A model generated the notes under the pieces. That model was not told the origin of the DNA, did no database searches, and saw only the letters and a program-made list of their open reading frames with translations. From a virus (lineage: Duplodnaviria; Caudoviricetes), in the IMG/VR virus record IMGVR_UViG_3300032307_000764, positions 128,001 through 192,000 of that record: a stretch of DNA of 64,000 nt; one strand, given 5' to 3'. The translations under genes were made by a program, and so were the position numbers. Below, piece by piece: positions 6,326 to 13,802 of this stretch (position 1 is the stretch's first letter; the number at the start of each line of letters is the position of its first letter).

Positions 6326-6676
6326 ATGATAGACTGGGTAAAATTATTGGTTGGAATCTTATTAGGTACTTTTGCTCAGGTCCTAACTTTTTTTCAACTC
6401 CAGGGTCCGATTAAATATGAATCGTTTAAAAATAACTATTGGATAGTTGTACTAATGGGAATTCCTATATCTATGTTATACATGTATTCTGTTAAGAATA
6501 TGGTAATGGCTTACAATGGACAGATGTGGCCTTCTAGATTAATAGGATTTTCAATAGGAGCGGTTGTATTCACTTATTTAAGCTGGTATTTATTTAGCGA
6601 GCCTTTAACAGCTAAGACAATTATTTGTTTGATACTTGCTATTTCTATATTGTTAGTTCAGATATTCTTTAAATAA
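6326..6676 (+). CDS. 4-TM small membrane protein, DMT/SMR-like
   Basis: Four hydrophobic segments; C-terminal LSWYLFSEPLT motif typical of DMT superfamily. Confidence 0.6.
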   Translation: MIDWVKLLVGILLGTFAQVLTFFQLQGPIKYESFKNNYWIVVLMGIPISMLYMYSVKNMVMAYNGQMWPSRLIGFSIGAVVFTYLSWYLFSEPLTAKTIICLILAISILLVQIFFK

Positions 6677-6936: not shown

Positions 6937-7192
6937 AAGATATCAAGATTGCAATTTTTTAGAAAAACTTTGGAGGTGGAGACACTATTTAAAAATTCCT
7001 TTTAAATGGATCCGGTGGAAGATCTTAAGTAATAAGGATTTCACTAATACAGGGTATTGGAAAATTCTTGTTGGATCAGCTCAGATTGATATGAGATGGT
7101 ATTATACTCAAGAGGAGGTTATAAAATTTTTCGATACAAAATTTACAAGAAATAACAAAATAGAAAGAGATGAAGACACTTTACATAGTTAG
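6914..7192 (+). CDS. Hypothetical Trp-rich protein
   Basis: ORF in packed operon. Confidence 0.6.
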   Translation: MEGNRNHKRYQDCNFLEKLWRWRHYLKIPFKWIRWKILSNKDFTNTGYWKILVGSAQIDMRWYYTQEEVIKFFDTKFTRNNKIERDEDTLHS

Positions 7193-7586
7193 AGGAATAC
7201 CAGGATCTGGTAAATCAACATTTGCAAAAAAATTAGTGGGTGAGGACTTTTTAGTGTGTGAAGCAGACAAATACTTCATAGATAAAGAGACTGGTGAATA
7301 TAATTTTGATTTTACTAAGATCAAGGAAGCCCACAAATTCTGTCAAGACACAGTTGAGACATACATGAAGGACTCATTAGTCAATGACCAATTTTATAGA
7401 GAGATCGCAGTTTCTAACACATTCACACAAGAATGGGAAATGGAGCATTATATCGAGCTTGCAAAAAAATACGGGTACATGGTATTTACTATAATAGTAG
7501 AAAATAGACATGGCGGTAAAAATGTCCACGGGGTTCCTGATGATACATTAGAAAAAATGAAAGGCCGATTTGAAATCTCCTTATAG
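7170..7586 (+). CDS. P-loop kinase (AAA_33/polynucleotide-kinase-like)
   Basis: IVRGIPGSGKSTFA, EADKYF, VSNTF, HGVP. Confidence 0.85.
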   Translation: MKTLYIVRGIPGSGKSTFAKKLVGEDFLVCEADKYFIDKETGEYNFDFTKIKEAHKFCQDTVETYMKDSLVNDQFYREIAVSNTFTQEWEMEHYIELAKKYGYMVFTIIVENRHGGKNVHGVPDDTLEKMKGRFEISL

Positions 7587-7623
7587 TAGAAACTTAGAGA
7601 CGTAAAGGGGGTATAAGTAGCAT

Positions 7624-8190
7624 ATGTCAATTGATTCAAAAAAGAAGTACGATCGTTTAAAAAATAGGAACCTCTATTTAGTAGACGAGATAGATCCAGA
7701 TTCTGCTAATGATGTTATAGAGGATATCATAGAAATTAATTCTTTGGATGAAGAAGACGAAGAAGAACTTAAAGATTTCGAACGTAGGCCTATAAATCTT
7801 TACATCAATAGTCCAGGCGGATGTGTTTACAGTACTTTAGCTTTGATCAATGCTATAGAATATTCTAAAACACCTATTATTACACATGCTTTAGGTATGG
7901 TAATGTCAGGAGCTTTATATGTTATGGCTTCTGGGCATATAAGAAAAGCTCACAAGTATTCTTCTTTTATGTTCCATGAGATCATAGTTAGTCATCCTTA
8001 TTCATCTTTAACTTGGATCAAGAATGATGTTAAAGAATGTGAGAGATTACAAAAAGCACTAGAAGGTATTTTAACTTCCAGAAGTAAATTCCCACAGGCT
8101 AAAATAGAAGAGGTCGTAGAGAGATCTAAGGATTTCTACTTTGATGCAAATGTTGCTTTAAAGTACAAAATAATAGACGAGATCTTGTGA
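7624..8190 (+). CDS. clpP: ClpP-family serine protease subunit
   Basis: INLYINSPGG, Ser in VMSGA, His in MFHE, Asp in KDFY. Confidence 0.9.
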   Translation: MSIDSKKKYDRLKNRNLYLVDEIDPDSANDVIEDIIEINSLDEEDEEELKDFERRPINLYINSPGGCVYSTLALINAIEYSKTPIITHALGMVMSGALYVMASGHIRKAHKYSSFMFHEIIVSHPYSSLTWIKNDVKECERLQKALEGILTSRSKFPQAKIEEVVERSKDFYFDANVALKYKIIDEIL

Positions 8191-8212
8191 AAAAATTACC
8201 ACAAATAAATTT

Positions 8213-8617
8213 ATGAGTGCAGAAAGGGAAGATTTAATTAGCAAATTAATTGATATAAGAGAGCAAGAAAAAACTCTAAGAAAGCAATTAGATGATTTAG
8301 ATCAGGAAGATAGATTTGCTAGAGCTAAAAAATATGAGGGAAGATATTTCATGGAAAAGAATGAAAGGACACCTGAATATATTAGATGTGTATTTGTTCA
8401 TAATACAAATACCGAATCTTGTAATCCTATGTGTATTCTTGTTAGTTACTGGGTACCTAATATAGATGAATACTTTCAGATCGAATCTTACCATCATTTC
8501 TACCCAGAAAAATGGGACGAAGAAGAAAAATGGGATGAGATTGGAGCGGAAGAATTTATAAATCATTATAATGAGGTACAAAGAAGAATTGAATTAGCAG
8601 TTTCGATAAAAAAATGA
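8213..8617 (+). CDS. Hypothetical protein
   Basis: 134-aa ORF. Confidence 0.7.
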   Translation: MSAEREDLISKLIDIREQEKTLRKQLDDLDQEDRFARAKKYEGRYFMEKNERTPEYIRCVFVHNTNTESCNPMCILVSYWVPNIDEYFQIESYHHFYPEKWDEEEKWDEIGAEEFINHYNEVQRRIELAVSIKK

Positions 8618-8862
8618 CTAAATCTCAAATACTTAAATTACGTCCGGAGTTTAAATTTGGAGGTATGACAATGATAGATTGGTTTCAGATCACTGAAGGT
8701 TCAGGTTTTTTCTGTATTAGAAGTGGTCTAAGACATGCAGACGGAGAAACAAGATCACCTTATTATTATGAAGATTGTATAGGGGGTAAGGGAGCAAAGA
8801 AAAAGGCTTTAGATAAGTTTAACAATTGGTGGTTACTTGTAGAAAGAGCAGAGAAACAATGA
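8614..8862 (+). CDS. Hypothetical protein
   Basis: ATGA overlap with upstream stop. Confidence 0.65.
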   Translation: MTKSQILKLRPEFKFGGMTMIDWFQITEGSGFFCIRSGLRHADGETRSPYYYEDCIGGKGAKKKALDKFNNWWLLVERAEKQ

Positions 8863-8908
8863 TTGTTCAGAAACTTTTCGGAAGTTTTTTTATATATATT
8901 AAAATAAT

Positions 8909-9397
8909 GGGCCCGCTTTGGATTTGACAGGCGGAGGTAGTTCTTTGAAATGATTCAGGCAGGGTTAGATTGGAAATCCTTAATTACCTATCAAACAATA
9001 AACGCAAACGTTTACAACACAGAGGATATCATGAGTATCCCAACTTCTCTTACTCGCGTAGCGGTAGCAGAAGAGGCTGAGATGCTATTAGCAGCTTAAC
9101 CGTCGGGCCGGATCGGCCTAGGAACAGAAAGATCCAAAACCGGCAAGAAAAAAGGTTCGTAGTATTGCCAATTTAACATTGAGTGGAGCCTTGAGGATTC
9201 GTCCAATACCCATTTAGATCGTCACTATCAATGTTAGGGAAACCTGGTTAATACCAGGGAGTAACCCAGACTGAGCATTAAGTCTGAAAGAAAAAAGAAA
9301 TGCACCAAAGTTTGTCCGTGTCGAATAACGGAATAAGCCTGTGAATGAGTTTCTCGAGCATTCGAGCTGGACGAGGGTTCGACTCCCTCCGGGTCCA
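8909..9397 (+). ncRNA. ssrA: tmRNA (489 nt), tag ANVYNTEDIMSIPTSLTRVAVAEEAEMLLAA
   Basis: Acceptor GGGCCCG/CGGGTCC-A with G3:U70, GATTTGAC D-loop analogue, T-arm GAGGG-TTCGACT-CCCTC, resume context ATAAAC|GCA at 9004, stop 9097-9099. Confidence 0.95.
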
Positions 9398-9400
9398 CAC

Positions 9401-9425
9401 TCCCCGAATCTTTTTGATTCGGGGA
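9401..9425 (+). terminator. Hairpin after tmRNA, probable terminator
   Basis: TCCCCGAATC-TTTTT-GATTCGGGGA perfect 10-bp stem. Confidence 0.7.
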
Positions 9426-9445
9426 TTTATTCTTATTTTTACATC

Positions 9446-9727
9446 ATGGAGATTTCACAAAAACAATTAAAAGAAGCAATCACTAAAGTTTCTGTCTACA
9501 TAAGAGAAGATAGAGCATACGAAGAACTATTAAAAATAGAAAGCTTTCCTGAGATCTGTAAGAAAATGGCTTACGACCTTTTCGTTAGAGGAATAACCGA
9601 ATCTAATGCTATGCACGATGCTGATGTGTTTACTTCTATAGTGATGATAAGAAAGTACTGTCAGGCATTAGCTAGGGATGGTTTTTTTGAGTTTAAATCG
9701 GATATTTCTGGATATGCAGGACTTTGA
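9446..9727 (+). CDS. Hypothetical protein (start corrected to 9446)
   Basis: Tracked start 9341 lies inside the tmRNA. Confidence 0.65.
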   Translation: MEISQKQLKEAITKVSVYIREDRAYEELLKIESFPEICKKMAYDLFVRGITESNAMHDADVFTSIVMIRKYCQALARDGFFEFKSDISGYAGL

Positions 9728-10064
9728 TAAGGAAGAAGGCAAAACGTACGCTGTACACTTTAAAACACACAAACACGATGTGTATATAGGAAGACCAAGT
9801 AAGTGGGCTAATCCATATACTCATAAAGATCTAGATAAGACTCAAGCTAAGTATCAAGTAGCCACAAGACAGGAAGCTATAAATGGATATGTACACTATC
9901 TTAACGAAAGCGGGTTAATAAAAGAACTTGAAGAATTAAGAGGTAAAGTTTTAGGATGCTGGTGTTGTAAATCCCCTTCTGACGGATCTGAAAAAACATT
10001 AGTGTGTCATGGACAAGTTATAGCTAAGATACTTAATACACCTTCACAGAATAAATTAATATAA
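9714..10064 (+). CDS. DUF4326-family protein
   Basis: DVYIGRPSKWANPY...LRGKVLGCWC; start probably MQDF. Confidence 0.85.
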   Translation: MQDFDKEEGKTYAVHFKTHKHDVYIGRPSKWANPYTHKDLDKTQAKYQVATRQEAINGYVHYLNESGLIKELEELRGKVLGCWCCKSPSDGSEKTLVCHGQVIAKILNTPSQNKLI

Positions 10065-10065
10065 A

Positions 10066-10308
10066 ATGAGTAGATACTTAGTAGAACTAGGAGAAAATAA
10101 AGAATTCGTTTATGGATGGGACCATGCACTTGGTTACTTTTATGAATTATGGGACAACTCACTTGGCGAAGAAGATTATGAAAAAATAGTAGAAGATAAA
10201 TCTTACTTTCTTAGTAAACTAAGTAGAGAGGATATGTTAGAAGCTATGACAAAATATAAGGCCGACGAATTTCATATCATGAAAATGTCTTTAGACTTAC
10301 CATTTTAG
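10066..10308 (+). CDS. Hypothetical protein
   Basis: YGWDHALGYF motif; operon-packed. Confidence 0.7.
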   Translation: MSRYLVELGENKEFVYGWDHALGYFYELWDNSLGEEDYEKIVEDKSYFLSKLSREDMLEAMTKYKADEFHIMKMSLDLPF

Positions 10309-10309
10309 G

Positions 10310-10714
10310 TTACTCCCTTGTTATTTTAAATGATATATTAAGAGTATCGTTGCTTTGCATAAATTCATCGCTTGTTTGTTTACAAAAATAATCAACGATT
10401 TTTATTGCATTGACATTTTTCTGGTCTTCTGATAAAAAAGGTCTAAGATCTAATCCGTAATTAAGATTTGTTTTTAATTTGTATAGGTATTCCTGATATT
10501 TATAAGCATCTAAATAATCCTGTGAATCTTTATTTAGATTACCGAATAGGATATTCAATATAATAGCTTCTAAATCTTGTTCCTCTATTACAAAATCCCC
10601 ATATTGTGTCCATTCGTTATCCAATATATTTTTTAATACATCGATCCTTGATTCTCCTTCTATTTCTAGAGTCATTATTAAATCTCCGGATTCGTAAAAT
10701 TCACATTTATACAT
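10310..10714 (-). CDS. Hypothetical protein
   Basis: 134-aa ORF at end of minus-strand operon. Confidence 0.7.
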   Translation of the reverse strand: MYKCEFYESGDLIMTLEIEGESRIDVLKNILDNEWTQYGDFVIEEQDLEAIILNILFGNLNKDSQDYLDAYKYQEYLYKLKTNLNYGLDLRPFLSEDQKNVNAIKIVDYFCKQTSDEFMQSNDTLNISFKITRE

Positions 10715-10716
10715 GT

Positions 10717-11328
10717 TTATTTTCTTATAAGATATCCTGATAGATTGGAAACTAATTCAGAAACTTCATCTTCTAGATCTTCAGATATGTCTATCTTATG
10801 CTTAACTGTATGAAGCTGTACAAACCCTATTAACTGTCCAGATAATGTTCTTATGGGTGCAGATATTATTTGTAGTATACCTTCCTCCGTTACTTTACCT
10901 CTAATGTAATCTAAAACTGGATCCTCTGCATTTACGTAGAAGAATTCTTGCTCGCTTAAATTTTTCATCAAGGAAGTATGTTCAGTAACAAATACATTTT
11001 GATTGTGTTCCTTAGCTTTAGAAACACCTGGTGAAACTGATTCGAAAGTTTGAGAATATTTTTTCATAGGAACTCCATGAAAGAATTTTCCGCCATTATG
11101 AAATTGGAATATACCAACCCTGTCTAATTTCCACACCTCTCTGAATTGATCTAGAAATTCTTGAACCTCTAGCATCGAATCGACGTCTTGCTGTGATATT
11201 ATTTCGTAATTTTCTTCGTCTTGGGACTTTTTCTTTGAATCCAAATAATGCTTCAACCAAATAGAGCCAAGTGCTACAATTACGGAAAAAATACCAGTTA
11301 TTAAAATCTGTAAAATTTCCAAGTTCAC
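10717..11328 (-). CDS. Single-TM + GAF-like domain protein (T4 T holin-like architecture)
   Basis: N-terminal TM, then RVGIFQFHNGG..., IISAPI..LIGFVQL GAF-like pattern. Confidence 0.45.
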   Translation of the reverse strand: MNLEILQILITGIFSVIVALGSIWLKHYLDSKKKSQDEENYEIISQQDVDSMLEVQEFLDQFREVWKLDRVGIFQFHNGGKFFHGVPMKKYSQTFESVSPGVSKAKEHNQNVFVTEHTSLMKNLSEQEFFYVNAEDPVLDYIRGKVTEEGILQIISAPIRTLSGQLIGFVQLHTVKHKIDISEDLEDEVSELVSNLSGYLIRK

Positions 11329-11340
11329 TTTTTTATGTTT

Positions 11341-11943
11341 TTAATCGTCGAAGCCTCCGAATCGTTTTAATATATTAGCACCTTTACCTAGGTCTTCACC
11401 TTTTAAACTAGGTGGGATCTCAAATTTCTTAACAATCTCTGGATCCTCTTCCATTTTCCTTCTAAGAACATCTTTATAAGTTTCGTTTCCTAAAAGTTCT
11501 TCTTCTGACATAGGAACTCCTTGCTGTCTTAAGATATACTTAATCAAGAATCCCATTTTAAAAAGATAATCTTCAGTAGTCATACAAGCTCTTCTAAGAT
11601 CAGTATTTAATCTAGGGAATTCCGAAGATTTAGAAGGTCCTACAACCACTCTAATACTTCCGTTGTGCATGATGTTATATTGAGGATATCCAGGTTTAGG
11701 AGATTTCATAGATTCGTGTTTAAATGCTATGTTACCTAAACGATCTTTAAAGTATCTTTGTTCTTCAGTACCTTGTGTTTCGATACCGATTGGGTTTTCT
11801 GCGATCATCTCTGTCCAACCCATTGCAACCATATCTTTATAAGCTTCTGATTCTCTGATTGGCTTAAAGCTAAGAACCGGGCATTTTTTAGCTCTTCTAA
11901 CTTCTTGTATTTTTTTGAACTCTGGATAGTTTTTAATACTCAT
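11341..11943 (-). CDS. Hypothetical protein with leader MSIKNYPEF and C-terminal GANILKRFGGF motif
   Basis: Start corrected to 11943; AATATATA motif at 11961-11971. Confidence 0.75.
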   Translation of the reverse strand: MSIKNYPEFKKIQEVRRAKKCPVLSFKPIRESEAYKDMVAMGWTEMIAENPIGIETQGTEEQRYFKDRLGNIAFKHESMKSPKPGYPQYNIMHNGSIRVVVGPSKSSEFPRLNTDLRRACMTTEDYLFKMGFLIKYILRQQGVPMSEEELLGNETYKDVLRRKMEEDPEIVKKFEIPPSLKGEDLGKGANILKRFGGFDD

Positions 11944-12156
11944 TTTTCCTTTGTTTTTCTTATATATATTCTTTCTACTCGCGGACTCCGAGAATTTTTC
12001 AATAGATCGTGAAATTTTTTGGTATCTTGACAGTATATTTAGAGTCCTCAGCAAAAAAACAGTTTTTATGAATTGTTTTTTTGTTCCCTATATATAGAAA
12101 AAGCCGGTTCCTAGGAATCGGTTTTTTTATTTGAGTTTTTTCTATAATATTGCGAT

Positions 12157-12708
12157 ATGTTAAAAGTACACTTTGAAAATTTTAATCACTTCTTGGAGAT
12201 AACTAATCCTCCTTCTAGTGTAACTGATCGTCTAGAGAAGCTTAAGACTCTCAGAGAAAGACCGGATTATCATCCAGAGCCCAATACTTTTGAGCACATC
12301 CGAATAGTGACTGAGAGATTAATGCTCACTGATGACATCGATCTTATATTCGCAGGATGTATGCACGATCTATTTAAGCTTGATACGCTGAGATTAAATC
12401 CTAAAACCGGATTTCCTACTTGTCCTGGACACGATACGCAAGTAGCGAGCTTTATACGAAGTAATAAAGAGGTTCAGGAATGGATGATTAGATATGGAGC
12501 TGATGTTGAAACAGTTGCAGATCTTTGTAAAGACCATATGAGATTTCATCAGTTCGATAGAATGAAAAAATCTAAGCAAGACGAGTTTCAAACAAGACCT
12601 CACTGGGGTAAATTAATATACTTAGGTGCTGCAGATAATATGATAGTTGAATTCGACATAGACAATTTAGAAAAAAGCTGGAAATGGAAAGAAAGAAGTA
12701 CGCTATAA
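12157..12708 (+). CDS. HD-domain phosphohydrolase
   Basis: YHPE..FEH, MHDLFK, GHD, HMRFH, ADN. Confidence 0.8.
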   Translation: MLKVHFENFNHFLEITNPPSSVTDRLEKLKTLRERPDYHPEPNTFEHIRIVTERLMLTDDIDLIFAGCMHDLFKLDTLRLNPKTGFPTCPGHDTQVASFIRSNKEVQEWMIRYGADVETVADLCKDHMRFHQFDRMKKSKQDEFQTRPHWGKLIYLGAADNMIVEFDIDNLEKSWKWKERSTL

Positions 12709-13802
12709 GAACCCTTAACAAGTATGTTAATGAGGGAAAGATAGAGAGAAATCCACATCCAACACTTCCTATCGCTATTTATAACTATACAAGGGAAACT
12801 CAATTTAATAATGATTGGGATGAAATAACCTTGGATATGAGAGGAACAATAATAGACGATAAAGGATATGTTGTTGCTTCTGCTTTCCGTAAGTTTTTTA
12901 ATTATGAGGAAGTAACTGATCAGGTTCCAACTAAAGGGGATTATGTTTATGTTCAAGAAAAAGTCGACGGATCTTTAGGTATACTTTTTTATTACCAGGA
13001 TGAATGGCATCTTGCAACTAAAGGATCTTTTACTTCAGATCAGGCGAAAAAAGGAATGGAAATACTAAGAAAAAACTATCCAGTTTTTGATCGGGTATTT
13101 CATCGACACGTAACTTACATAGTTGAGATCATTTATCCAGATAACAGAATAGTGGTTGACTATAAAAACGAGGAGAAAATAGTTTTCCTGAGCACTTCTG
13201 TTAATGGAGAAGAACAACACTGGACAACATCTTTATCCATATTTAGTAGTAGTGGTATAAAAGAAGAGGATATAGTTAAATGCGAGCAGCACTTCTCTTT
13301 CGGTGAAGATCTGTATAAATCTTTAAAGGGTAAAAATACAAAAAACGAGGAGGGATTTATTCTTAGATTCCAGCCTGGTAATTTCCGAATGAAAATAAAA
13401 TTCGAAGAATATGTTAGATTACATAGGCTTCTTACTAATTTCTCTAATGTTGATATCTGGGAAGCATTAAAGGATGGAAGGGATATAAATGTTCTTCTTG
13501 AAAGAGTTCCTGATGAATTCGATGCATGGGTTAGAAAAACTATATCTGATCTAGAATATCACAAATATAGAATAGAAGAAAGAGCAGGAAAGATCCACGA
13601 GTATTTTAGGTATGGAAAATATGGAGATCGCGAGATCGAGCCTACTAAGAAAGAATTTGCACAGCACTTAGAATTATGTAAAACCGAACCTTCTATAAAA
13701 GCAATATGCTTTTCTATATGGGATGGAAGAAATTACGATAGGATAGTTTGGAGAATGATAAGACCAAAGTATCAGAAGCCTTTCTGGAACAGGGAGGAGT
13801 AG
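12684..13802 (+). CDS. T4 Rnl1/RnlA-type RNA ligase
   Basis: IYNYT, RGTII, RKFFNY, motif I EKVDGSLG, VEII, EEGFIL, RMKIK. Confidence 0.9.
   Translation: MERKKYAIRTLNKYVNEGKIERNPHPTLPIAIYNYTRETQFNNDWDEITLDMRGTIIDDKGYVVASAFRKFFNYEEVTDQVPTKGDYVYVQEKVDGSLGILFYYQDEWHLATKGSFTSDQAKKGMEILRKNYPVFDRVFHRHVTYIVEIIYPDNRIVVDYKNEEKIVFLSTSVNGEEQHWTTSLSIFSSSGIKEEDIVKCEQHFSFGEDLYKSLKGKNTKNEEGFILRFQPGNFRMKIKFEEYVRLHRLLTNFSNVDIWEALKDGRDINVLLERVPDEFDAWVRKTISDLEYHKYRIEERAGKIHEYFRYGKYGDREIEPTKKEFAQHLELCKTEPSIKAICFSIWDGRNYDRIVWRMIRPKYQKPFWNREE

What the first reader, a model, noticed from the sequence alone, without database searches (positions are those of the whole stretch)
8909..9397. Oversized phage tmRNA with a 31-residue tag peptide
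Seen: a 489-nt tmRNA with intact alanyl identity (G3:U70, A73) and a good resume context (ATAAAC|GCA), encoding ANVYNTEDIMSIPTSLTRVAVAEEAEMLLAA. Known: most bacterial tmRNAs are about 350-400 nt with tags near 10 aa (E. coli ANDENYALAA). Inference: the extra ~20 aa may bind a phage adaptor or ClpP, redirect stalled host products, or make the tag a functional peptide. An internal ATG would give a 22-aa mini-ORF.
Basis: partly seen in the sequence, partly recalled or inferred. Interest (0 to 1): 0.7.

Follow-up and report, generated by a model that had tools for sequence, protein, structure and literature searches.

The report
Phage tmRNA with long conserved tag
A 248-kb freshwater phage carries its own ribosome-rescue RNA (tmRNA), whose tag is 31 residues, about three times the 8-10 of its likely Bacteroidota hosts; dozens of related phages keep the extra part, so it probably does more than mark unfinished proteins for destruction.

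Summary
Window 8909-9397 (+) is a complete one-piece tmRNA (Rfam RF00023, 73.4 bits). ARAGORN's 9-residue call (EEAEMLLAA) is an artefact.

- **Resume site.** Pseudoknot PK1 covaries. It ends 10-13 nt before the resume codon in 26 relatives, whatever their tag length.
- **Coding.** The frame stays open in 48 phage tmRNAs and length changes are whole codons. pN/pS is 0.42-0.47 in frame against about 1.0 in the shifted frames.
- **Shared motif.** T-x-E-D-hydrophobic recurs in three clades with different codons.
- **Host comparison.** Fifty-three sampled Bacteroidota tmRNAs, the likely host phylum, have tags of 8-10 residues.
- **Expression.** Contigs from four metatranscriptome studies lie on the gene.

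Not shown: what the extension does. I infer a two-part tag, with a host-type C-terminal degron plus a conserved recognition element. ClpP lies next to the tmRNA only here and in one relative. An internal 22-residue mini-ORF is unlikely.

Phage tmRNAs and long tags are each known, but I found no paper on this family. This scan has reported the same kind of thing on other DNA (e1-3279539, e1-5410262, e1-3642262).

The parts
8909..9397 (+). tmRNA gene, from G1 to discriminator A73; CCA not encoded
   Evidence: ARAGORN; Rfam RF00023 at 73.4 bits
8909..8915 (+). 5' strand of the acceptor stem (GGGCCCG), G3 pairing with U70
   Evidence: read from the sequence; pairs with 9390-9396
8961..8992 (+). 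Pseudoknot PK1: S1 8961-8965 with 8976-8980, S2 8968-8973 with 8987-8992
   Evidence: 10 different S1 pair sets, all 5 of 5 complementary, in 26 family members; the distal part of S2 also covaries
8993..9003 (+). 11-nt single-stranded spacer and resume context AAACAAUAAAC (U at -5, A at -4)
   Evidence: Rfam aligns it to the consensus resume region at high posterior probability; the spacer is 10-13 nt in 26 relatives
9004..9099 (+). Tag reading frame: 31 codons (9004-9096) plus UAA stop (9097-9099)
   Evidence: translation; open in all 48 family tmRNAs; pN/pS 0.45 against about 1.0 in the shifted frames
9024..9040 (+). Hairpin 1 inside the frame (GGAUAU / GUAUCC), with AUG 9031-9033 in its 5-nt loop; covers the E-D-I-M-S-I core
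   Evidence: RNAalifold on 9 relatives; all 6 pairs invariant
9044..9073 (+). Hairpin 2 inside the frame (9044-9054 with 9063-9073)
   Evidence: 10 pairs, 3 of them with changes on both sides; the compensating changes are synonymous (TCU/TCA with GCA/GCU)
9074..9097 (+). Hairpin 3, spanning the last codons and the first base of the stop
9105..9119 (+). H5-like hairpin just after the stop codon
   Evidence: 4 pairs, 3 of them with compensatory changes
9135..9240 (+). Pseudoknot-region segment holding about 70 nt that the 419-nt relatives L004 and L018 lack; with the 63 extra coding nt it explains the large size
   Evidence: MAFFT alignment; Rfam leaves a 218-nt unaligned insert here
9334..9350 (+). 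Family-specific word in the 3' strand of helix H2, used to collect relatives independently of the tag
9373..9396 (+). T arm (9373-9389) and 3' strand of the acceptor stem (9390-9396)
   Evidence: sequence; Rfam alignment
9401..9425 (+). Intrinsic terminator hairpin followed by a T run, directly after the gene
7624..8190 (+). Context: divergent ClpP-family protease gene 700 nt upstream
   Evidence: Pfam PF00574 at 87.8 bits; ClpP chains in the PDB at E 1e-14, active-site Ser aligned; adjacent to the tmRNA in L010 too

Best explanation
This is a working, phage-encoded one-piece tmRNA. It is probably charged with alanine by the host enzyme (G3:U70, A73) and delivered with host SmpB, since the phage record has no smpB. 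It enters stalled ribosomes, and translation resumes at GCA 9004, 11 nt after pseudoknot PK1. The 31 codons are translated, so rescued proteins receive the charged Ala plus 31 residues. I read the tag as having two parts. Its last residues (…EMLLAA; …[FY]A[VIL]AA in relatives) look like the host-type ssrA degron read by ClpXP-like proteases. The preceding 20 or so residues, with the core T-x-E-D-I-M-S-I-P-T-S, are a phage-specific extension kept by selection on the peptide. It most probably serves as a second recognition element, either an adaptor-binding site of the SspB kind or extra protease signals of the Mycoplasma/Lon kind, that changes how, how fast or by which protease rescued proteins are handled during infection. 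The long frame is also folded into three hairpins, which probably keep the enlarged message compact. Shown here: the gene, the resume site, the open and selected frame, the family, and the host-type C-terminus. Inferred: aminoacylation, use of host SmpB, and above all the role of the extension.
For: Identity: RF00023 at 73.4 bits; ARAGORN; acceptor stem with G3:U70 and A73. Resume site: Rfam aligns the consensus resume region onto 8997-9009. The resume codon lies 90-100 nt from the 5' end in 48 phage tmRNAs and 90-103 nt in sampled Bacteroidota tmRNAs. PK1 covaries, with 10 pair sets all complementary, and ends 10-13 nt before the resume codon in 26 sequences with tags of 13 to 32 residues. 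Short-tag relatives start with the same GCA AAC GUA in the same context. Translation and selection: there is no stop in frame in any member, against 1-4 stops in each shifted frame. Lengths of 29, 31 and 32 codons differ by whole codons. pN/pS is 0.45 overall and 0.42 for codons 6-23, against 0.97 and 0.99 in the shifted frames. Two other clades repeat this: 0.39-0.40 against 2.5-3.7. The T-x-E-D-hydrophobic motif is kept with GAG GAU…AGU in one clade and GAA GAC…UCU in another. Host comparison: 53 sampled Bacteroidota tags are 8-10 residues and end in A[LM]AA. The phage has A-rich, SD-free leaders and a Bacteroidia-like tRNA-like domain and resume context. Phage-borne: the gene is mid-record in a 248-kb virus. 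More than 45 family members lie in viral contigs, many over 200 kb. The family word is at chance level, and never in a tmRNA, in 401 Bacteroidota genomes. Expression: contigs from four metatranscriptome runs of four studies lie on 8902-9401. In two of them contigs run from 9398/9399 straight into adapter sequence, a weak hint of an RNA 3' end. Dependence on the host: no SmpB, no Lon and no ClpX-type AAA_2 domain above the Pfam cut-off in the record.
Against: No experiment or proteomic datum shows tagging. The host is inferred, not known. The extension is also an RNA structure. Hairpin 1 is invariant even at synonymous sites, and hairpin 2 shows compensatory changes, so part of the conservation is at RNA level. 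The pN/pS contrast is weak in the GK..VW clade (0.58 against 0.66 and 1.07) and absent in the small clade whose tags end in ATV or SMV. The pairwise counts are not phylogenetically independent. No candidate reader of the extension was found. The conserved upstream neighbour in relatives is a 4-TM membrane protein. ClpP is adjacent only here and in L010. RNA-library contigs can contain DNA. The record is 85% complete, so a phage smpB could lie in the missing part; one relative does carry smpB.
Confidence: 0.7

Rival explanations
1. The extension exists mainly for RNA reasons. The extra 63 nt form hairpins that are needed for folding, stability or ribosome handling of this large tmRNA. They are translated simply because they lie in frame, and the peptide sequence of residues 1-22 has no reader of its own.
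For: There are three hairpins inside the frame. Hairpin 1 is invariant at five synonymous third positions, and hairpin 2 has compensatory synonymous changes. The pN/pS contrast is weak or absent in two of five clades.
Against: RNA structure does not produce a 3-nt periodicity. pN/pS is 0.42 in frame against about 1.0 in the shifted frames on the same columns. The E-D-hydrophobic core is kept across clades with different codons and different local pairing. Family members with 13-14-residue tags do without these hairpins.
Confidence: 0.15
2. ARAGORN's reading is right. Translation resumes at GAA 9070 and gives the normal-length tag EEAEMLLAA, and the 66 nt before it are an untranslated structured linker.
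For: ARAGORN makes this call here and in four relatives. U and A also stand at -5 and -4 before GAA 9070. The linker is structured.
Against: That site lies 77 nt beyond PK1, behind two hairpins, whereas every family member and every sampled bacterial tmRNA resumes 10-13 nt after PK1, at nt 90-103. Rfam aligns the resume consensus to 8997-9009. Codons 6-23 show in-frame selection and only whole-codon indels. ARAGORN calls the long frame in L004 and L018. The -5/-4 context at this second site is not kept in L076 or L094.
Confidence: 0.05
3. The RNA is also, or instead, an mRNA for a free 22-residue peptide that starts at AUG 9031 after the SD-like GAGGA.
For: GAGGA lies 4-5 nt before the AUG. 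The AUG sits in a hairpin loop and is invariant in the window's clade.
Against: Genes of this phage carry SD-like words less often than background (8.8% against 12.4%) and have A-rich leaders instead. The GGA is paired in hairpin 1. The Met is Leu or Ile in three related tags with the same motif. Selection also covers codons 6-9, upstream of the AUG.
Confidence: 0.03
4. The phage tmRNA acts mainly as a competitor. It soaks up host SmpB, or occupies stalled ribosomes, to blunt the host's own rescue or a defence that depends on it, and the tag is secondary.
For: No smpB is found in the record, so it must draw on host SmpB. A phage tRNA-like-domain-only tmRNA that inhibits tmRNA is in print (PMC4131195, PMC11915505).
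Against: The whole message part, with PK1, resume context, open frame, stop and H5, is kept and under coding selection. A pure decoy would not need any of it.
Confidence: 0.05

Closest known systems
Chromosomal one-piece tmRNA (SsrA, Rfam RF00023) of Bacteroidota, with tags such as GENNYALAA
   Same: Same architecture. The tRNA-like domain is alike (…UUUGACAG…, …CUGGACGAGGGUUCGA…). The resume context CAAUAAAC|G is the same in Cytophagales and Flavobacteriales examples, the resume codon lies at nt 90-103, and the C-terminus ends in hydrophobic-AA.
   Different: Tag of 31 against 8-10 residues. Gene of 490 against 349-404 nt. Three hairpins inside the frame. The gene is carried by a phage, and its family-specific H2 word was not found in any tmRNA of 401 sampled genomes.
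tmRNAs of actinobacteriophages: mycobacteriophage Bxz1 group (PMC4131195); Gordonia phage BlueNGold, annotated tag of 28 residues
   Same: Complete tmRNA genes in lytic phage genomes. The deposited annotation of BlueNGold and Mareelih already shows a long acidic tag ending in a hydrophobic tail.
   Different: A different lineage: only a 32-nt match in the tRNA-like domain. The hosts are Actinobacteria and the tag sequence is different. I found no paper discussing tag length or conservation in them.
Mycoplasma ssrA tag: 27 residues, read by Lon (Gur and Sauer 2008, PMC2570983, as cited in PMC8403727, which I read)
   Same: An unusually long tag whose extra residues carry additional protease-recognition signals. 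This is the best precedent for 'longer tag means different reader'.
   Different: No sequence likeness. It is a bacterial chromosomal gene in a lineage without ClpXP. Here the C-terminus still looks ClpXP-type and the phage record has no Lon.
Two-part ssrA tags read by the adaptor SspB plus ClpX (E. coli AANDENYALAA; Caulobacter); from my own knowledge of the literature
   Same: Layout: an upstream adaptor-binding part and a C-terminal LAA-type part.
   Different: Those tags are 11-14 residues. I know of no SspB in Bacteroidota, and I found no adaptor candidate next to the phage gene.
Two-piece tmRNA of marine phage Melnitz and pelagimyophages (PMC9004378)
   Same: A tmRNA in T4-like aquatic myoviruses. 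That paper counts tmRNA genes in 402 of 18,146 phage genomes (2.3%), so phage tmRNA as such is known.
   Different: Those are permuted two-piece genes of alphaproteobacterial type under a glutamine riboswitch. No long tag is reported.

Membership tests
tmRNA (SsrA), Rfam RF00023 | Covariance-model score at or above the curated gathering score | tested here: met
   73.4 bits against 47, E 1.3e-26, full model 1-374
tmRNA (SsrA), Rfam RF00023 | tRNA-like domain: 7-bp acceptor stem with G3:U70, discriminator A73, T arm with a UUCGA-type loop | tested here: met
   8909-8915 pairs with 9390-9396 and includes G3:U70; A at 9397; T arm 9373-9389
tmRNA (SsrA), Rfam RF00023 | Pseudoknot PK1 a fixed short distance upstream of the resume codon | tested here: met
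   S1 covaries (10 pair sets, all 5 of 5); spacer of 10-13 nt in 26 relatives, 11 nt here
tmRNA (SsrA), Rfam RF00023 | Tag frame that opens with a G-starting codon after U(-5)A(-4), ends at a stop beside helix H5, and encodes a hydrophobic or Ala-Ala C-terminus | tested here: met
   AAUAAAC|GCA…GCA GCU UAA, followed by a covarying hairpin at 9105-9119
tmRNA (SsrA), Rfam RF00023 | Pseudoknots PK2-PK4 between H5 and H2 | tested here: inconclusive
   Rfam leaves 218 nt unaligned here. The MFE fold shows several hairpins, but I did not resolve any pseudoknots.
tmRNA (SsrA), Rfam RF00023 | Made as a stable RNA | tested here: inconclusive
   Contigs from four RNA libraries lie on 8902-9401, and some run into adapter at 9398/9399. 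Contigs cannot prove transcription or ends.
tmRNA (SsrA), Rfam RF00023 | Alanylation, SmpB binding and trans-translation activity | not testable with these tools
   No smpB in the phage record, so host SmpB is assumed
Lon-directed long ssrA tags (Mycoplasma type) | Tag recognised by Lon in a host without ClpXP | not testable with these tools
   The precedent comes from the literature (PMC8403727). There is no sequence likeness and no Lon in the phage. It serves as a model of how a long tag could work, not as a family to file this under.
Actinophage tmRNA lineage (Bxz1 / Forzavirus) | Sequence relatedness beyond the universal tRNA-like domain | tested here: not met
   blastn finds only a 32-nt match in the tRNA-like domain for a family member, and nothing for the window's gene

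The most novel reading that the evidence does not exclude
Large phages of Bacteroidota reprogramme the output of ribosome rescue. Their own tmRNA appends a long tag whose conserved acidic-hydrophobic core (T-x-E-D-hydrophobic…) is an address read by a specific, so far unidentified, host or phage factor. During infection, truncated proteins are therefore routed differently from those tagged by the host tmRNA: faster recycling into amino acids, delivery to a protease containing phage ClpP, or escape from a host response to stalled ribosomes. Similar long acidic tags in unrelated actinophage tmRNAs would then be a convergent phage strategy.
Probability: 0.3. Interest if true: 0.75.

Novelty: new variant of a known kind. 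Interest (0 to 1): 0.55.

Why it matters
Why phages carry tmRNA is an open question. The papers I read offer only general ideas: keeping the hijacked translation machinery running, recycling host protein, or sensing host state (PMC7162821, PMC9004378). This family gives a concrete handle. The tag is three times the host length, its added part is conserved as a peptide across many uncultured jumbo phages, and the C-terminal degron is kept. That makes a direct question testable, namely who binds the added part and what then happens to the tagged proteins.

There is also an annotation consequence. ARAGORN truncates these tags to 9 residues or misses the genes altogether; about 20 of the family members collected here were missed. 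Surveys of phage tmRNAs that rely on it under-report both the genes and the long tags.

Tried and rejected
- **Cultured relatives.** blastn of the window tmRNA and of a short-tag relative against 50,697 GenBank phage records found nothing, so no cultured close relative was identified by this route.
- **Bacterial genomes.** One scan of GTDB genomes with the tag-start pattern gave six hits, none of them a tmRNA.
- **Chance hits.** About ten viral contigs matched the tag-start pattern by chance in an unrelated, non-tmRNA sequence (L003, L006 and others).
- **Neighbour as adaptor.** The ORF at 6326-6676, which sits directly upstream of the tmRNA in many relatives, is a small 4-TM membrane protein. 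The two ORFs between ClpP and the tmRNA (8213-8617 and 8614-8862) have no Pfam match and are missing in L010, which has the same tag.
- **ClpP-tmRNA linkage as a family trait.** Rejected. The two genes are adjacent only here and in L010, although 4 of 5 related jumbo records carry a ClpP gene somewhere.
- **Promoter.** No sigma-70-like site was found before the gene. A spaced pattern linking it to the early-cassette promoters was at chance level. The only shared feature is a T run followed by ATAT.
- **RNA runs.** No contig of the four RNA runs lay on the flanks 8600-8895 or 9414-9700. The holders are relatives whose flanks differ, so this says nothing.
- **Complex prediction.** No job was sent, because I had no specific partner to test.
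- **Protein database searches.** Not used, because the tag is too short for them.

Full report
**What is there.**
ARAGORN finds one tmRNA in the window, at 8909-9398 on the + strand. Rfam's tmRNA model RF00023 matches 8909-9400 over its whole length at 73.4 bits (gathering score 47, E 1.3e-26). The sequence shows the 7-bp acceptor stem GGGCCCG / CGGGUCC with G3:U70, discriminator A at 9397 and a T arm at 9373-9389. CCA is not encoded. An intrinsic terminator follows at 9401-9425. The window is bases 128001-192000 of a 248-kb IMG/VR virus record, 34% G+C and estimated 85% complete, with only one other tRNA-like gene. The tmRNA lies deep inside it, among small phage genes. Large ORFs nearby match a T4-type DNA polymerase, an RnlA-type RNA ligase and CobS/CobT. 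The polymerase is nearest, at 34-38% identity, to the huge phages of Al-Shayeb et al. and to Lak phages.

**Where the tag starts.**
ARAGORN reports only the last nine codons (EEAEMLLAA), so the resume point had to be settled. Four results agree on 9004.

- Rfam aligns the consensus resume region (AAUAAuU GCa AAC) onto 8997-9009 with high posterior probability.
- In 48 related phage tmRNAs, and in 53 sampled Bacteroidota tmRNAs, the resume codon lies 90-103 nt from the 5' end.
- Pseudoknot PK1 can be read directly: S1 is 8961-8965 with 8976-8980, and S2 is 8968-8973 with 8987-8992. Across 26 family members S1 takes ten different sequence pairs, all fully complementary. PK1 ends 10-13 nt (mode 11) before the resume codon, whether the tag is 13 or 32 residues long.
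- Relatives with ordinary 14-residue tags start with the same GCA AAC GUA in the same context. ARAGORN itself calls the full 31-codon frame in L004 and L018.

ARAGORN's site at 9070 lies 77 nt beyond PK1, behind two hairpins.

**The family.**
Two exact-pattern scans of IMG/VR were run, one with the tag start and one with a tag-independent word from helix H2 (9334-9350). They returned more than 45 tmRNA genes in viral contigs, many of them 200-430 kb. ARAGORN misses about 20 of these, because their 5' tRNA-like part differs. Rfam confirms several of the missed ones.

The 48 genes give 35 distinct tags, in these length classes:

| Tag length (residues) | Distinct tags |
|---|---|
| 13-14 | 5 |
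| 20 | 1 |
| 23-25 | 16 |
| 29 | 4 |
| 31-32 | 9 |

The window's clade reads A-N-V-Y-N-x-E-D-[IM]-M-S-I-P-T-S-[IL]-T…E-E-A-E-x-L-x-A-A. Other clades read …T-[FY]-E-D-A-[MLI]-[SA]-F-V…[FY]-A-[VI]-A-A, G-K-x-N-V-W-[DE]-x-I-N-x-F-G…, and a 29-residue type that ends in ATV or SMV instead of Ala-Ala.

**Is the long frame translated?**
- No member has an in-frame stop, while the two other frames carry 1-4 stops per sequence.
- Lengths of 29, 31 and 32 codons differ by whole codons.
- In the window's clade (11 distinct sequences) pN/pS is 0.45, and 0.42 for codons 6-23, the part ARAGORN leaves out. The same alignment read one or two bases out of frame gives 0.97 and 0.99.
- Two other clades repeat the contrast (0.39 and 0.40 in frame, 2.5-3.7 out of frame). 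One clade is weak and one small clade shows none.
- The shared T-x-E-D-hydrophobic core is written GAG GAU…AGU in one clade and GAA GAC…UCU in another, so it is conserved as a peptide.

The frame is also an RNA structure. Hairpin 1 (9024-9029 with 9035-9040) is invariant even at synonymous sites. Hairpin 2 (9044-9054 with 9063-9073) shows compensatory changes that are synonymous on both strands. Hairpin 3 and an H5-like hairpin close the frame. Both kinds of constraint act on this stretch, which is why I keep an 'RNA reasons only' rival at 0.15.

**Host and host tag.**
The host is not known. My own evidence points to Bacteroidota.

- Only 8.8% of 261 ORFs have an SD-like word upstream, against 12.4% in the background, and the leaders are A-rich.
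- Several early-cassette promoters carry TAnnTTTG-like -7 boxes (not tested statistically).
- The tRNA-like domain and the resume context match Cytophagales and Flavobacteriales tmRNAs.

Earlier notes of this scan reached the same host reading by other routes. In 53 tmRNAs drawn from 151 sampled Bacteroidota genomes, the tags are 8-10 residues (GENNYALAA and the like) and the genes are 349-404 nt. The family's H2 word occurs at chance level in 401 Bacteroidota genomes (14 hits against 21 for the reversed control), and none of the ten fetched hits is a tmRNA.

**Expression.**
Six metatranscriptome runs hold part of the stretch. In the four I laid, from four studies, contigs lie on 8902-9401. 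In two of them, contigs run from 9398/9399 directly into sequencing adapter. One run holds, at depth 227, a relative with another long tag. Contigs cannot prove transcription or RNA ends, so this is supportive only.

**Context and mechanism.**
A divergent ClpP-family gene lies at 7624-8190 (Pfam 87.8 bits; active-site Ser aligned to solved ClpPs) and an AAA_33 kinase at 7170-7586. In the closest relative, L010, ClpP ends 16 nt before the tmRNA. No other relative with flanks shows this. Four of five related jumbo records carry ClpP elsewhere, and one carries SmpB. The window's own record has no SmpB, no Lon, and no ClpX-type domain above the cut-off. The phage tmRNA must therefore work with host SmpB and a host unfoldase.

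The C-terminus looks like the host degron, and the extension is phage-specific and selected. The best-supported model is therefore a two-part tag, with a host-type degron plus an added recognition element. There are two precedents: SspB-binding tags, which I know from the literature and did not read here, and the 27-residue, Lon-directed Mycoplasma tag (PMC8403727, citing Gur and Sauer 2008). What reads the extension is unknown.

The internal mini-ORF is unlikely. This phage does not use SD sites, the GGA is paired in hairpin 1, and the Met is replaced by Leu or Ile in other clades.

**Novelty.**
Phage tmRNAs are in print:
- the mycobacteriophage Bxz1 group and Bacillus phage G (PMC4131195);
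- huge phages (PMC7162821);
- 402 of 18,146 phage genomes (PMC9004378).

Long tags are known in Mycoplasma. GenBank annotation of Gordonia phages already lists a 28-residue tag. The 2025 tmRNA database paper gives 10 residues as the commonest tag length and does not discuss long phage tags. I found no paper on a conserved extended tag in phage tmRNAs. The held library is incomplete, however.

This scan has itself reported the same kind of family on other genomes (e1-3279539, e1-5410262, e1-3642262). I rate it a new variant of a known kind, of moderate interest.

Noticed in passing
L002:7609-8193 (- strand): A close relative's tmRNA (29-residue tag) is interrupted in its T loop by a group I intron (RF00028, 97.8 bits, directly 3' of a partial RF00023 match). 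ARAGORN does not see this gene. Intron-form tmRNA is known in bacteria (PMC11915505); here it is in a viral contig.
   Followed up: partly
L016:2092-2500 (-) and L028:9601-10019 (+): GOLLD RNA (RF02032, 298 and 280 bits) lies 0.7-1.2 kb from the tmRNA in two family members, next to tRNA genes in L028. None is found in the window.
   Followed up: no
L037, L050, L052, L057, L070, L091 (tmRNAs of about 382 nt): A sub-clade has an odd T arm (…ACGUUGGGCAGUACAACGU…) and 29-residue tags ending in ATV or SMV instead of Ala-Ala. It stays below Rfam's gathering score and is missed by ARAGORN. A tag without the usual degron end suggests a different fate for the tagged proteins.
   Followed up: partly
window 7170-13802: Possible RNA-repair and translation-rescue neighbourhood: AAA_33 kinase (7170-7586), ClpP (7624-8190), tmRNA, DUF4326 (9678-10064) and an RnlA-type RNA ligase (12684-13802). 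Earlier notes add an amber-gated PTH2 and a suppressor tRNA elsewhere in the genome.
   Followed up: no
window 6326-6676: A small 4-TM membrane protein with no Pfam match is the immediate upstream neighbour of the tmRNA in at least ten relatives. In the window, about 2.2 kb of genes, including ClpP, are inserted between the two.
   Followed up: partly
G000:C1:230086-230505 (outside the window): A second ClpP-family gene in the same phage (PF00574, 98 bits, covering only model positions 41-180). A similar short form occurs in the related record G154.
   Followed up: no
G157:C1:1243-1659 (record of L044): One related 218-kb phage record carries its own smpB (PF01668, 151.6 bits) as well as tmRNA and ClpP. 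The window's record and four other relatives searched do not.
   Followed up: no
window 39707-63700, e.g. 41626, 42062, 46306: Early-gene cassettes share GAATCA, a T run, ATAT, and about 17-20 nt later a TAnnTT[TA]G box resembling the Bacteroidota -7 promoter element. The tmRNA's upstream region shares only the T run and ATAT.
   Followed up: partly
L170:231-632 (Gordonia phage BlueNGold, OP297539.1): The deposited annotation gives this actinophage tmRNA a 28-residue acidic tag ending in ALV. Long tags therefore recur in unrelated phage tmRNA lineages.
   Followed up: no
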